Assembly (NCBI GenBank): GCA_964016885.1
Contig: OZ024740.1
Location: 372,930,001 to 372,994,000, forward strand
Length of the DNA stretch: 64,000 nucleotides
Source: Eledone cirrhosa
Lineage: Eukaryota
Direction of reading: 5' to 3'
Below the pieces are notes generated by a model that was not told the DNA's origin, made no database searches, and saw nothing but the letters and a program-made list of their open reading frames with translations. Numbering within the stretch: the first letter of the stretch is position 1; the number at the start of each line of letters is the position of its first letter. A program made the translations under genes and the position numbers. Of the stretch, positions 17,390 through 48,663 are shown piece by piece.

Positions 17390-18508
17390 AGTATTTTTCG
17401 TAGTGTTGTAATATGAATATTACACACAGTAGATGGACAGCTCACGTAGAGTTTGCTCGACGGTTCCAGTTGTAGTTTCAAAAGTAATCCGGAGAAAATA
17501 TAAGGATTTTAATGGATATAGTTTAGTTAAAAGGAATTTATTGACACGTGTTTCAATAACAGTTACACAACCTGAAAACAGCTGCTATCTATAAAGTATT
17601 AGTTATGCAGACATTCAATATTTCAATGTTATTATCAACTGTCATTTCATCAGAATAATTTTATTGAGAACCTGTTTAGTTTTTATAGAGAATATTAGGA
17701 GGGAGGGTGAAGTTGTTAGAAGAATAGTTAAGGGAGTGGTTTTTTGATAGCAGTGAGAATTTTTGGTGGCAGTGAGTAATTAGATTCCAATCTGTTGTTT
17801 TGACATTTTTATAGAATATATTATTTGGCATTGGTTATTTTTCTAAATCTATAGAAGGATTAGAGATAGTATATATATGCATGGTTGGTTTTGTGTTTGC
17901 ACTTAATTAACATTCAGACTTAAATTTTTCTTTCAAGTGTACGTATCCTTTCGCCCACGCATTCACACACAAACATATACACACACCTCTACAAAATACA
18001 TATATTCACATACACATACTTACATGCTCATACTTACATACATATATACATGCACGTATATATATATATACATATATATCCATATATATATGTACATACA
18101 TACGCATTTATGTGTATACATTTTCGTACTCAACTTATCTTTATATACACACATATAGACACGCACATATATACATACATACTCCTGTATATGTGTGTGT
18201 GTGTATATATATATATATATATATATATATATATATATATATATATATATATATAAACACTTTAATACATGAATACACTTACATCTAACTATAGACATCA
18301 AACATATATATATATATTTACTTATTTATATACATTTTCACATATATATACATACATATGGTCGCTTTTAGACACATTCCTTATAGCATATTCACATGTC
18401 TGCATAACTAATACTTTGTAGATAGCAGCTGTTTTCAAGTGATGTAACTGTTATTGAAACACGTGTCAATAAATTCCTTTTAACTAAACTGTATCCATTA
18501 AAATCCTT
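17390..18508 (-). mobile_element. PLE pLTR-derived fold-back: tail about 17390-17500, arms 17502-17614/18396-18508
   Basis: Arms are reverse complements; (TA)n on both sides; tail homologous to the leader of the PLE at 27700-27766. Confidence 0.8.
17539..17657 (-). ncRNA. Type I hammerhead ribozyme with canonical core
   Basis: Minus strand: TATT-CTGATGA-AATGACAGTT..(long loop)..AACTGTTATT-GAAAC-ACGT-GTC-AATA. Confidence 0.88.
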
Positions 18509-18835
18509 CTATATATATATATATATATATACCGTATATATATATATATATATATATATATACCGTATATATATATATATATATATATATATATATATAT
18601 ATATATATATATATATATACATATATATATATATATACCGTATATATATATATATATATATATATATATATATATATATATATATATATACATATATATA
18701 TATATATATATACCGTATATATATATATATATATATATATATATATATATATATATATATATATATATATATATACATATATATATATATATATATACCG
18801 TATATATATATATATATATATATATATATATATAT

Positions 18836-19304
18836 ATGAATGTATAGTATATTTGGCAATATACCATATGTTTAATTAAACACATTTTGAAGACCATACG
18901 CGATGGGTTTTAAAGCAGTGACTATGTCACTTACTTCTTTTCGGCGAAAGAAGGGAGAGAACTAACAGTCTGTTTCGCGGTTTTTGGCCGTCATCAGAGC
19001 CACGCACTCCCTGCTTAAGCCAAAAATTATAGAATTCCAGTAATATTGATTATACAGAGCGATTGCCGGTCCAGCAAAAACTAGGTATTAGGATTGGTGC
19101 TCGATGATCACCAAACAGCGTGAAACAGACAGTTAACTTCTCTCCCTTCTTACACCGAAAAGAAGTAAGTGACATAGTCACTACTTTAAAAGCAATTTCG
19201 TATGGTCTGACTGTTTTTAATTAAACATACGGTATATTGCAAAATATACTATACATACATTCATGTATACATCGCTATTTCAGAGCACTAATCATAATAC
19301 CCAA
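18836..19304 (+). mobile_element. Fold-back element: arms about 18836-19003/19097-19264, tail 19265-19304, in (TA)n
   Basis: gtgactatgtcacttacttcttttcgg is mirrored as ccgaaaagaagtaagtgacatagtcac. Confidence 0.85.
18961..19000 (-). ncRNA. Hammerhead ribozyme; decayed mirror copy on + at 19099-19138
   Basis: Minus strand: GCT-CTGATGA-CGG ccaaaaa CCG C-GAAAC AGACT GTT-AGT. Confidence 0.65.
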
Positions 19305-19461
19305 TATATATATATATATATATATATATATATATATATATATATATATATATATATATATATATATAACGAGGGAAATGTGGTACGGAACCAGATGGAC
19401 CATAACGCACCAAAGTACTCAATACGTAGGGTAGTAGAGTGGGTAATAGGAACGAGTAGGA

Positions 19462-44826: not shown

Positions 44827-45228
44827 AATGATACTTAGTAATAATAATATATGACAAGAAGTAGCATTTTGACATACTTAGGAGAATATTGTGATACGTA
44901 GAGGAAAAGTATAAGAAAATGATGTTACGTTTGGAAGGTTAAAACTAAATTGAAACGCAGGCCCAAAACAAATTCTATGAATGGAGTTCGGGATTGTTAG
45001 AGTCACCTAAATTATTTCGCTACATGTATCAGTGGAGAAGGTATTGAGAGGAATAAAATGAAGTAAATGAAAATGAAGCATCATAAGGAAACGCTAGGAT
45101 GGAAAGGGAGGTTGGAGGAGTGACTAAGTGAGACTGAAATAGCAAAATGCAGATAGAGACTAAAGGGGTGGCTACACCTCCAAATTTATAGCCGGGTTGG
45201 GGAAGAGAGATAGAAATCAATCTCCATA

Positions 45229-45267
45229 AAGAAGAAGAAGAAGAAGAAGAAGAAGAAGAAGAAGAAG
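45229..45267. repeat. (GAA)n microsatellite
   Basis: Directly visible. Confidence 0.95.
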
Positions 45268-46302
45268 TTTGAGTGGGAGAAGTGTACATGATTGAGACAG
45301 TTATTGTGCGTAATATAAAAACGAATTGAGAGCCAAATGAAAACGCATTGCTTTGAGAGTAGAATGTAATTTGTAAAAAGAAATGGTTAAACGAGAGGTT
45401 TCTAATAGTAAAAAAGTTATCCTACAAAATGAAATATACTAACATGACTATAAATTAGGATAAAATATATATAATAAATATAACATTCAAAGAAACAAGA
45501 AGAAATGCTAAAATATGTATGGACGTAACCAATGATTACTTTCAACGAATTAAATTGAATTTGCCTTTTTATTTATTTACATTTTTTTGTTTCCTCCTCG
45601 TAACTCTAAGATGTTCCAAAAGCCTAATAAATAAAAGACAATAACACTCTACCAAATGCCTACCGTACAATCAGTCGCAATACAACCTCTTCTAGCTCTG
45701 GCAAGTCATCATTATGGCCAGCAAGATATTAATCAGTGCACAAAAGAAACTAACACATTGTTCACCAATCAGAATAAAAATGAATGGAACAACGCACTAT
45801 TCAATATGTATTGAATTTTCGCCAACAAACGTTTTTTTTAGTGGCATATCATATATACACACAGTCGCACAAATATAGTTGCACATACAAATACACAGAA
45901 GCTCGCATATGCACAAAAGGTATAAACTTAGTGTAAGCACGCCAATGTATGCTTCTGTGTTCGTTTTGAATTGGAGACTCTTTCTATGTATTAGGCTTCA
46001 ATTAATTTGATTTTATCTAGGGATACGTTACATTTTAGGGTTGTATGATACATAAACATTCCTTCTACACATTTCTATGTGTGTACGTGTGCGTTTACAA
46101 ACGGACATACTCAGAAAAACACAAAATAATTCAGACATACACACACCCATATATCTACACACACACACGTAACCCCCGACCACCACCATATATATATATA
46201 TATATATGCGTGTGCATATATATATATTTCGGGGAAATAGCACAAACTCAATTTGTCTTTTTCAACACACACACACATATATATATATATATATATATAT
46301 AT

Positions 46303-48663
46303 AGTATAAAAGAGAAAACACAGGTAAGCATTAAGAGAAGGATTTTATCCAGGTATTTACGACCGTTTCATTGGTAAGTACAACCTTATATTGCTATACT
46401 GCAAATAGCAGCCACTCAATTATAATTGTTGTTCACGTCCAAATTTTCAAAATAGTGAGTAAGTTACTCTTAAAATAGTTCTTAATATATAGAGAAAAAC
46501 ATTTTTTTTGAATCGTATTTACTAGTATAGAGAGAGAGGGAGAGGAATTAGAAGGTGAGGGGAAAAACGGAATAGTAATGAGAGAAAGGAAGGGGGAGAA
46601 GTGTTAGGAAGTAGAGTGACAAACTGAGATGGAGGGGGGGGGGGGTAGAGGTGGTAGGATCCTTGAACAGTTTTGATATGTAGACATCATGTCGTGGAAT
46701 GTAGTGAGTTAAAGAGAATTAAATTGATCATAGTGTGAGGGATGGATAGAGAGAGAGAAAGAGAGAGAGAGAGGGGTAGAGATAAAGAGATAAAATATAT
46801 ATATAACAAAATAAAGATAAGATAATAATGACAAAAATAAAAGCAAAGAAGGAGAGAGAAAGAAGAAAAGAAAAGATAGCCAAAAAGGCGAGGGAAGGAA
46901 GGAAGAAAACGAATAGAAGAGGAATGAAGGAGAAGGGAGGGATATCGGTATTGGTGTTTGTGGGTAATTAAAAGGGTTTAGATACAATAAGAGGGTATAA
47001 AGTCTAAGTATATGCAGTTTGTCAGTTGGTAGTAAGAGGTTAAGGGTTCGATTTGCACTTGTAGTACGAAGAATTTTCTTTGAGTCTATGGTTACAATAA
47101 ATTGATCTTTCGATTTTATTGTTGAGTAACTTATTCTTCGAACTCCAAATGTGGAACAGTTCAAGGTCACATAATCGACAGTTTCTCATACCACTCCGAT
47201 ATGTGGGCGCGTTCGATAATTTTTTCCATTCAGGGTGTATTGATGGTTACTTTCCATCAGTTGCCAGGTCTTGATTGCAAGGGTAGTTACATAACGATGC
47301 TGGGAATGTTACAAAACGTAACACACTTGTACAGGCATCGCAGCCCACCAATAATGCCAAAGTTGCCTATGACAAGAATTGTAACTGCCACCTACCTGAA
47401 ACCTGTCCATTACATAATGAATGTATGCAGTCTAACCTCGTTTACCAATACACAGTGGAATCAGACAACCAGAAATGGCATTACATCGGAGCGACTGGGA
47501 ATATATTTAAAGCCCGTTGGTATACACATCGTTACGCAATGAAACATTCCCAGTATCGTTATGTAACTACCCTTGCAAACAAGACCTGGCAACTGAGGGA
47601 AAGTAACCATCAATACACCCTGAAGTGGAAAACATTATCGAACGCGCCCCCATATCGGAGTGGTATGAGAGGGCTGTCGATTATGTGACCTTGAGCTGTT
47701 CCACATTTTGAGTTCGAAGAATAAGTTACTCAACAATAAAATCGAAAGATCAATTTATTGTAACCATAGACTCGAAGAAAAGTGTTCGCACTACAAGTGC
47801 AAATCGAACCCTTCACCTCTTACTACCAACTGACAAACTGCATATACTTAGACTTTATACCCTCTTATTGCATAAACCCTTTTAATACCAACAAAAACCA
47901 ATACCTATATCCCTCCCTCCACCTTCATTCCTCTTCTATTTCTTCGTTTTCTTCCTTCCTCGCTCCCCTTTTTGACTATCTTTTCTTTTCTTCTTTCTCC
48001 CCACTTCTTTGCTTTTATTTTTGTCATTATCTTTATCTTTATTTTATATATATATATATATATCTTTATATCTCCCCCCTCACTCTCTCTATCCATCCCT
48101 CCCACTATGATCAATTTAATTCTCTTTAACTCACTACATTCCACGACATGAAGTCTACATATCAAAACTGATCAAGGAATCCTTCCACCTCTACCCCTCC
48201 CTCCATCTCAGTTTGTCACTCTACTTCCTAACTCTTCTACCACTTCCTCTCTCTCTATACTATTCCGTCCCCCTCCCCACCTTCTAATTCCTCTTCCTCT
48301 CTATATATATACTAGTAAATACAATTCGAAAAAAATATTTTTTTCTATATATTAAGAACTATTTTAAGAGTAACTTACTCACTGTTTTGAAAATTTGGAT
48401 GTGAACAACAATTATAATTGAGTGCTATTTGCAGTATAGCAATATAAGGTTGCACTTACCAATCAAACGGTCGTAAATACCTGGATAAAATCCTTCTCTT
48501 AATGCTTACCTGTGTTTTCTCTTTTAGACTTTATACTCCAAGATTGAACGGAATTCTTACAAACTTGTGGAGTTACCCCTAACCGTACGTTGAAACCATA
48601 CATTAAAACTGGCTTTCTTAACCACGAACTGGATCACACTAAGCAATTTTCTACTTCCCTAAC
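46303..48663 (+). mobile_element. Truncated PLE (GIY-YIG plus 3' UTR) as a fold-back with arms of about 1 kb (46303-47320/47531-48530), tail 48531-48663, in (TA)n
   Basis: NCNC..CPLHNECMQSNLVYQ..WHYIGATG..FKARW in the spacer and right arm; arms are reverse complements. Confidence 0.92.
46354..46454 (-). ncRNA. Hammerhead ribozyme, U3-A8 core; mirror at 48383-48479 (+) has G12C
   Basis: Minus strand: TATT-TTGAAAA-TTTGG...CCAAT-GAAAC GGTC GTA-AATA. Confidence 0.6.

What the first reader, a model, noticed from the sequence alone, without database searches (positions are those of the whole stretch)
17390..48663. One architecture across unrelated families: (TA)n, inverted arm, HHR arm, unique 3' tail, (TA)n
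Seen in 17390-18508, 18836-19304, 19368-19719, 37305-41782 and 46303-48663, probably in 42430-43074, and in truncated form at 9113 and 63062. In each case the unpaired tail (about 35-135 bp) lies 3' of the ribozyme and the inverted arm stops at the tail boundary. Arms range from about 26 bp to 1.1 kb, with or without coding sequence. Inference: a single integration mechanism with a fixed internal start or stop site and (TA)n targeting.
Basis: partly seen in the sequence, partly recalled or inferred. Interest (0 to 1): 0.75.

Follow-up and report, generated by a model that had tools for sequence, protein, structure and literature searches.

The report
Penelope retroelement two-armed insertion scars
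These repeats are the ends of several Penelope-like jumping genes, plus one small non-coding ribozyme repeat, set in TA microsatellites in a pattern already in print; the copies show two fixed end points per family, one per arm, which likely mark where the copying enzyme starts on each DNA strand, and an intact ribozyme is not shared by all of them.

Summary
The architecture is real and already known: it is the insertion scar of Penelope-like elements (PLEs), i.e. an inverted 5'-truncated copy, a one-sided tail and a (TA)n target (PMC8557442, PMC3846280, PMC11167929). The families are not unrelated in mechanism. Four are Hydra-type PLE ends, one is a Neptune-type RT+GIY-YIG element, one is a non-coding 316-nt hammerhead repeat (retrozyme-like). 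Fixed ends are confirmed: 143 of 150 arms chosen without regard to their ends stop at one of two family-specific sites, and 104 of 105 two-armed inserts pair one site with the other. The 'HHR arm' claim fails in part: canonical core in 2 of 6 families, altered in 3, none found in the Neptune family; both arms can carry it; the 42430 'tail' is misread. Either arm can reach further 5' (26 vs 29 of 75), so twin priming from both target strands is likely. All 11 main start sites share 2-7 nt with (TA)n. The retrozyme-like repeat carries the same scar. The scan noted all this before on other DNA of this genome. Verdict: known system, modest mechanistic refinement.

The parts
17389..18509 (-). Element A: 3' end of a Hydra-type PLE; sense arm with tail 17389-17500, inverted arm 18388-18509
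   Evidence: other copies lead upstream into a CxCx5C + GIY-YIG frame and, read through the tail, into an ATG at +55
17538..17658 (-). Canonical type I hammerhead of A: core CUGAUGA 17653-17647, long stem II, palindromic stem III, GUC cut after 17543
18838..19303 (+). Element B: non-coding 316-nt head-to-tail hammerhead unit (retrozyme-like); inverted arm from 18838, tail 19263-19303; intact hammerhead core at 18997-18991 on the minus strand
19369..19716 (-). Element C: 3' end of a second Hydra-type PLE; tail 19369-19448; hammerhead-shaped motif with CUGAGAA core (19550-19544) in both arms
9114..9248 (-). Short C-like insert: 27-bp arms, 80-bp tail
63062..63219 (-). Short C-like insert: about 40-bp arms, 80-bp tail; no TA run on the right
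37308..41781 (+). Element D: 5'-truncated Neptune-type PLE; inverted arm 37308-38439, tail 41742-41781; no hammerhead found
38698..40368 (+). RT + GIY-YIG open frame of D (556 aa)
   Evidence: Pfam GIY-YIG E 1.8e-6, RVT_1 E 3.8e-6 (below its gathering score)
40528..40698 (-). Nested 3' end of another repeat family (G) in the (TA)n of D's 3' UTR; its last 80 bp are mirrored in D's inverted arm (38360-38439)
   Evidence: absent from 12 of 12 other D copies that span the place
41896..43073 (-). Element F: Hydra-type 3' end; long arm ends at the tailless site (41896), the opposite arm is cut short at 43073; altered hammerhead core at 42026-42020
46304..48663 (+). Element E: Hydra-type 3' end with GIY-YIG fragment (47287-47688); inverted arm 46304-47322, tail 48530-48663; only the 3' half of a hammerhead is conserved

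Best explanation
These are insertions of Penelope-like retroelements and of a non-coding ribozyme repeat with the same ends, and each two-armed copy was likely made by a PLE RT-endonuclease that cuts both strands of a (TA)n tract and primes one cDNA at each of two fixed internal RNA sites. SHOWN: PLE proteins linked to five of six families; two fixed ends per family; S1+S2 pairing; free 5' ends; 2-7 nt of TA identity at the start sites; tail = the stretch between the two sites, lying before the ORF start in tandem copies. INFERRED: the two arms are separate cDNAs from transcripts of one source locus; the nicked (TA)n 3' end pairs with the short UA stretch; a hairpin 6-11 nt 3' of each site (CUC...GAG in the Hydra-type families) positions the enzyme; the two truncated cDNAs are joined by end repair; single-armed copies are events in which only one site primed or one arm was lost; element B borrows a PLE enzyme in trans. 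The hammerhead likely serves RNA processing and is not needed for the scar.
For: RT + GIY-YIG in D; Hydra motifs in copies of A, C, E, F. 143 of 150 end-unselected arms at two sites. 104 of 105 distinct two-armed inserts are S1+S2, 1 is S1+S1; about half would be like-with-like if sites were drawn independently. The tailless arm reaches further 5' than the tailed arm in 26 of 75 resolved inserts, the reverse in 29, equal in 20, so neither arm is a fold-back copy of the other. The two arms of one insert are closer to each other than to arms of other inserts in A (p 0.0005), D (0.005), E (0.018), and both arms of the window's D carry the private G insertion. 11 of 11 main start sites share >=2 nt with (TA)n, 10 of 11 >=3; null 0.21 and 0.09; further repeat ends found blind show 2-4 nt. 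Interrupted TA tracts keep the same strand bias on both sides in 3 of 3 distinct scorable inserts, as expected for a tract that was there before. Purified PAc protein cuts and extends both strands, starts at two internal sites bounding the tail, is predicted to be a dimer and does not need hammerhead cleavage (PMC11167929).
Against: No clean two-sided empty site was found among 148 inserts searched against 1.7 Mb of loci, and 73 of 161 informative flanks run into other repeats that have no (TA)n there, so a pre-existing target is only weakly shown. Central junctions show no general microhomology (15 of 75 >=2 nt, control 17%; 51 have extra or unaligned bases). Arm-sharing is not significant in C (p 0.08) or B (p 0.54) and could reflect conversion between arms. 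The hairpins are not unusually stable (z from +1.1 to -2.4), D's tailless site has none beyond the TA stretch, and two rows (A S1, H) picked the wrong read-through copy. Two minor sub-sites share only 1 nt with (TA)n; A, C, E, F are relatives, so the sites are not independent. PMC11167929 reports initiation without homology to the cut DNA. The pair count only includes arms that end at S1 or S2 and abut a TA-like run.
Confidence: 0.72

Rival explanations
1. Single priming plus fold-back: one cDNA starts at the tail end, snaps back at its truncated end and copies itself until it lands on the target at a TA match, which would define the second site.
For: 20 of 75 junctions are nearly symmetric hairpins, with hot spots in C (about 150-157 nt from the reference end) and in D at a GATC palindrome; arms share private variants.
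Against: In 26 of 75 inserts the tailless arm holds sequence 5' of the tailed arm; tailless single-armed copies are common (9 of the 11 partnerless A inserts).
Confidence: 0.1
2. The (TA)n is written by the RT itself through telomerase-like slippage on the UAU at each start site, not targeted.
For: Each site has about 1.5 TA units of template; 73 of 161 flanks enter repeats with no TA there; PLE RTs are sister to telomerase RT (PMC8557442 passage).
Against: The nested G insertion sits in a TA tract present in 12 of 12 empty D copies; interrupted tracts share strand bias across the insert (3 of 3); almost no insert splits a host repeat cleanly; one inspected no-TA flank was the truncated 5' end of another element (L068).
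Confidence: 0.1
3. The hammerhead sets polarity and boundary: cleavage or ribozyme folding fixes the arm end and tail.
For: In five families a hammerhead or its remnant lies 17-55 nt 5' of the tailless site.
Against: Same scar in D with no hammerhead found and in C, E, F with altered cores; the ends do not coincide with the cut site; PAc ribozyme mutants insert normally (PMC11167929); Naiad elements lack hammerheads yet share the structure (PMC8557442).
Confidence: 0.05
4. Fold-back DNA transposons (MITE-like) with TA targets.
For: Inverted arms flanked by TA.
Against: Variable inner ends, one-sided tail, linkage to RT + GIY-YIG, tandem read-through copies.
Confidence: 0.02

Closest known systems
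Canonical insertion structure of endonuclease-bearing Penelope-like elements (PMC8557442 passages and Fig. 2 legend; PMC3846280 parts 1-2 of 5)
   Same: 5' truncation, partial tandems, adjacent inverted 5'-truncated copy, tail at one end only, (TA)n preference in Hydra, Naiad and Neptune, hammerheads near the 3' end
   Different: Tails here are 31-134 bp, against the 30-40 bp in print; strict S1+S2 pairing and either-arm-longer are not stated in the passages read
Hydra clade of PLEs (PMC8557442 section 11 and supplement rows, e.g. Hydra-1_Obim)
   Same: RWK/RWR, DKT, KDHK, YRDDG, CxCx5C linker, C-terminal GIY-YIG, (TA)n target in families A, C, E (F: linker and endonuclease only)
   Different: Hammerheads with 55-110-nt stem II inserts and altered cores in C, E, F, where the paper calls canonical hammerheads universal in Hydra; by eye none of the N-termini equals Hydra-1_Obim
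Neptune clade of PLEs
   Same: GxKF, DKG, CX4CxxC linker, CCHH-type GIY-YIG in D (against supplement alignment rows)
   Different: No hammerhead found; separate upstream ORF overlapping the RT frame at a U UUU UUA site
PAc (Poseidon of Anolis), in vitro mechanism (PMC11167929, parts 1-2 of 4 read)
   Same: Two internal RT start sites bounding the tail; both strands cut and extended; ribozyme dispensable; RNA determinant 3' of the start sites
   Different: PAc sites lie 111-118 nt inside the ORF and show no homology to the cut DNA; here they lie 29-94 nt before the ATG and share 2-7 nt with (TA)n
Non-LTR retrozymes (PMC7229834 passages; bioRxiv 10.64898/2026.07.22.740005 parts 1-3 of 5)
   Same: Element B: about 316-nt non-coding tandem unit with a type I hammerhead and low GC
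   Different: Those papers argue PLE mobilisation from co-occurrence and pLTR phylogeny; B carries the PLE insertion scar itself; its circular RNA is untested
L1 twin priming (recalled; named in search listing)
   Same: Two primers from the two target strands give a 5' inversion
   Different: In L1 the two cDNAs cover different parts of one RNA; here they cover the same part from two fixed sites

Membership tests
Penelope-like elements (EN+) | RT plus GIY-YIG endonuclease | tested here: met
   D: Pfam, (RVT_1 below gathering score); A, C, E, F: linked coding fragments in other copies
Penelope-like elements (EN+) | pLTR / partial tandems, tail reading into the next unit | tested here: met
   read-through copies L221 (A), L219 (C), L211-213 (D), L222 (E)
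Penelope-like elements (EN+) | Inverted 5'-truncated copy with one-sided tail | tested here: met
   104 of 105 two-armed inserts
Penelope-like elements (EN+) | Hammerhead in the pLTR (usual, not universal) | tested here: inconclusive
   canonical in A; altered in C, E, F; not found in D
Penelope-like elements (EN+) | RT phylogeny within PLEs | not tested
   no tree built; reference proteins seen only in a paper supplement
Hydra clade (A, C, E, F) | RWK, DKT and CxCx5C motifs, C-terminal endonuclease | tested here: met
   read by eye in translations, against the definition; for F only linker and endonuclease were seen, for A no DKT region was fetched
Hydra clade (A, C, E, F) | (TA)n insertion preference | tested here: met
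Hydra clade (A, C, E, F) | Canonical hammerhead | tested here: not met
   met in A only; C, E, F carry altered cores. Lowers 'textbook Hydra', not 'works like Hydra'
Neptune clade (D) | CX2-5CxxC linker, CCHH endonuclease, DKG, GxKF | tested here: met
   Nematis not excluded without a tree
Non-LTR retrozyme (B) | 170-400-nt non-coding tandem unit with type I hammerhead | tested here: met
   316-nt period; 15 of 18 read-throughs continue into the monomer, the other 3 are variant or rearranged; longest frame 86 aa; circular fold z -5.2 against pair shuffles
Non-LTR retrozyme (B) | Expressed, self-cleaved circular RNA | not testable with these tools
   no run on record as RNA was listed
Fold-back DNA transposon / MITE | Symmetric terminal inverted repeats, fixed length | tested here: not met
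   one-sided tail and variable inner ends

The most novel reading that the evidence does not exclude
PLEs integrate by obligate-asymmetric twin priming: two tandem RNA modules (short unpaired UA stretch that pairs with the cut (TA)n, then a hairpin) each load one subunit of the RT-endonuclease, giving exactly one tailed and one tailless arm; a non-coding retrozyme that carries such modules is copied by the same enzyme, which is direct genomic evidence that PLEs spread animal retrozymes.
Probability: 0.5. Interest if true: 0.6.

Novelty: new member of a known kind. Interest (0 to 1): 0.33.

Why it matters
How PLEs make their inverted arm and tail is stated as open in PMC8557442 and only partly answered in PMC11167929. 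The counts here (strict pairing of two sites, either arm longer, TA pairing at both sites, ribozyme dispensable) give a testable twin-priming model and name young, abundant families to test it with. The retrozyme-like repeat with the same scar supports a long-proposed PLE-retrozyme link. The architecture itself is not new, and earlier unchecked notes of this scan already hold these refinements.

Tried and rejected
Rfam scan: no ribozyme family, only AT-repeat noise. PDB sequence search of the D protein: 0 hits. First hammerhead descriptor (stem II up to 70 nt) gave a wrong fold for A and missed C and F; corrected, whose strict per-copy filter still under-counts B, C and F, so motif counts come. 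Two-sided empty-site search: nothing usable. One-sided flank test: ambiguous. Central-junction microhomology: first run had two references in the wrong orientation and only 11 rows (its p-value is not used); the full run shows no enrichment. The solo-junction script stopped before family E. Apparent S1+S1 pairs of B were tandem read-throughs and vanished when a TA run was required. RNA: no RNA holder listed for B; contigs of three runs of unrecorded kind, possibly the assembly's own sample, were laid on B and are not used as evidence. Searches for a published twin-priming model of PLEs, for newer PLE structures and for octopus or Hydra non-autonomous elements listed none beyond the papers cited; subscription journals and the older PLE reviews are outside the library, and the supplements of the bioRxiv retrozyme preprint and of PMC11167929 were not seen and may bear on the microhomology and retrozyme claims.
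Full report
SETTING. The window lies in a 3.0-Gb, AT-rich animal genome (G000) and is dense in (TA)n tracts. A resemblance of its short interspersed repeats to cephalopod repeats is recalled and was not tested.

OBSERVATION. Self-comparison and reading the sequence confirm inverted arms with a one-sided extension between TA tracts at A 17389-18509, B 18838-19303, C 19369-19716, D 37308-41781 and E 46304-48663, and short C-like copies at 9114-9248 and 63062-63219 (end positions).

WHAT THE FAMILIES ARE. D encodes RT + GIY-YIG with GxKF, DKG, a CX4CxxC linker and a CCHH-type endonuclease, i.e. 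Neptune-type by motifs. Copies of A, C, E and F elsewhere in the genome lead into Hydra-type coding sequence (definition). In tandem copies the tail reads on into the next unit, with the first ATG 29-94 nt past the tail end. B has no coding link in 60 loci: it is a 316-nt head-to-tail unit, 15 of 18 read-throughs continue into the monomer, and it holds a type I hammerhead. That fits the non-LTR retrozymes at the DNA level.

TWO FIXED ENDS. Probes placed 5' of both ends gave 30 arms per family (top 30 of 40 scored; the window's copy included; some pairs of hits are the two arms of one insert). Ends fell at the tailless site S2 or the tail end S1 in 20+10 (A), 12+18 (C, one with an internal deletion), 14+15 (E), 16+13 (D) and 11+14 (B) cases, 143 of 150; the rest were 2 tandem read-throughs and 5 other ends or deletions. 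Over all loci then held, 105 distinct two-armed inserts had both ends at a site and beside a TA-like run; 104 were S1+S2. Hand counts give a partner within 7.6 kb for 15 of 26 A, 15 of 28 C and 22 of 30 E inserts; the rest are single-armed, longer or interrupted. Tails measure 112, 31-41, 80, 40 and 123-134 nt in A-E.

TWO cDNAs, ONE SOURCE. Of 104 inserts, 75 junctions could be placed: the tailless arm reaches further 5' in 26, the tailed arm in 29, and 20 are equal. The tailed arm cannot be copied from the tailless one, and in 26 cases the reverse is impossible too, so both were likely primed on RNA. Arms of one insert resemble each other more than arms of other inserts in A, D and E, not significantly in C or B. 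Both arms of the window's D carry part of a nested foreign repeat end that 12 of 12 other D copies lack, which points to transcripts of one parent locus. Junction microhomology is not enriched (15 of 75 with >=2 nt, control 17%).

START SITES. In read-through copies all 11 main sites continue with 2-7 nt that match (TA)n; the fair null is 0.21 for >=2 and 0.09 for >=3; two minor sub-sites have 1 nt, and related families are not independent. In the Hydra-type families a CUC 6-12 nt after the site can pair with a later GAG(C/U) (background 2.5% of positions); most sites fold with an unpaired 5-10-nt leader and then a hairpin, but the folds are not more stable than shuffles. In A and C the stretches after S1 and S2 resemble each other, as for a duplicated module (read by eye).

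RIBOZYME. Canonical in A and B, altered in most copies of C, E and F, not found in D. Ends do not coincide with the cut site. So the scar does not depend on a working hammerhead, in line with PAc mutants.

TARGET. A pre-existing (TA)n is favoured by the nested insertion in D and by 3 of 3 interrupted tracts with the same strand bias on both sides, but clean empty sites were not found; RT-written repeats are kept as a minor rival.

KNOWN? Yes. PMC8557442 (passages, section 11, supplement rows) describes the inverted 5'-truncated copy, the one-sided 30-40-bp tail and (TA)n preference. PMC3846280 (parts 1-2 of 5) shows the same in a rotifer. PMC11167929 (parts 1-2 of 4) shows that the tail is the stretch between two internal RT start sites. 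PMC4209133 (passages) notes hammerhead pairs on opposite strands 100-700 bp apart. PMC7229834 (passages) and bioRxiv 10.64898/2026.07.22.740005 (parts 1-3 of 5) propose PLEs as mobilisers of retrozymes without using insertion scars in the text read. I found no paper stating strict S1+S2 pairing, TA pairing at both sites or a retrozyme with the scar, within a library that lacks most subscription papers. Eight earlier, mostly unreviewed notes of this scan on other DNA of this genome reach the same reading; my reading was formed before that call, and they are not counted as support.

VERDICT. Real, well explained, known in outline. Interest 0.33; new members of a known kind; the twin-priming refinement would deserve about 0.6 if shown biochemically.

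Noticed in passing
family D, e.g. L199:1075-1142 and L182-L210: The Neptune-type family has a separate upstream ORF (ATG 29 nt after the tail end) that overlaps the RT frame in the -1 register at a U UUU UUA heptamer, kept in 22 of 23 copies; no stable structure follows it. Likely programmed frameshift; the Fig. 1 legend of PMC8557442 mentions an ORF1 with frameshift in some PLE types.
   Followed up: partly
window 24675-28548: Another Hydra-type PLE on the minus strand: partial tandem (24670-25195 repeated at 27764-28303), ends at a tailless-type site at 24675, canonical CUGAAGA hammerhead with long stem II read by eye, inverted endonuclease piece at 28337-28548.
   Followed up: partly
window 2299-3098 and 3482-5593: Duplicated hammerhead unit (cores at 2447 and 2883) with an inverted piece and a TA end at 3098, followed by Hydra-like RT and GIY-YIG fragments.
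   Followed up: no
window 796, 1293, 17166, 49393, 63427: Further hammerhead or hammerhead-like motifs of other families; 63427 is a clean minimal type I motif that Rfam missed.
   Followed up: no
window 62954-63029: Perfect 76-bp palindrome with a (TA)13 centre beside the short C-like insert.
   Followed up: no
D family junctions, window equivalent 41542; C family about 150-157 nt from the tail end: Recurrent symmetric central junctions give stereotyped 440-bp (D) and 190-215-bp (C) hairpin inserts; cause not worked out.
   Followed up: partly
L233, L243, L249, L303, L118: Some tailless-site and tail ends run into (CT)n instead of (TA)n.
   Followed up: no
window 6539-6708, 8484-9097, 35254-35463, 44326-44825, 53752-54127: An abundant short interspersed repeat family, partly in tandem, often next to the TA tracts.
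   Followed up: no
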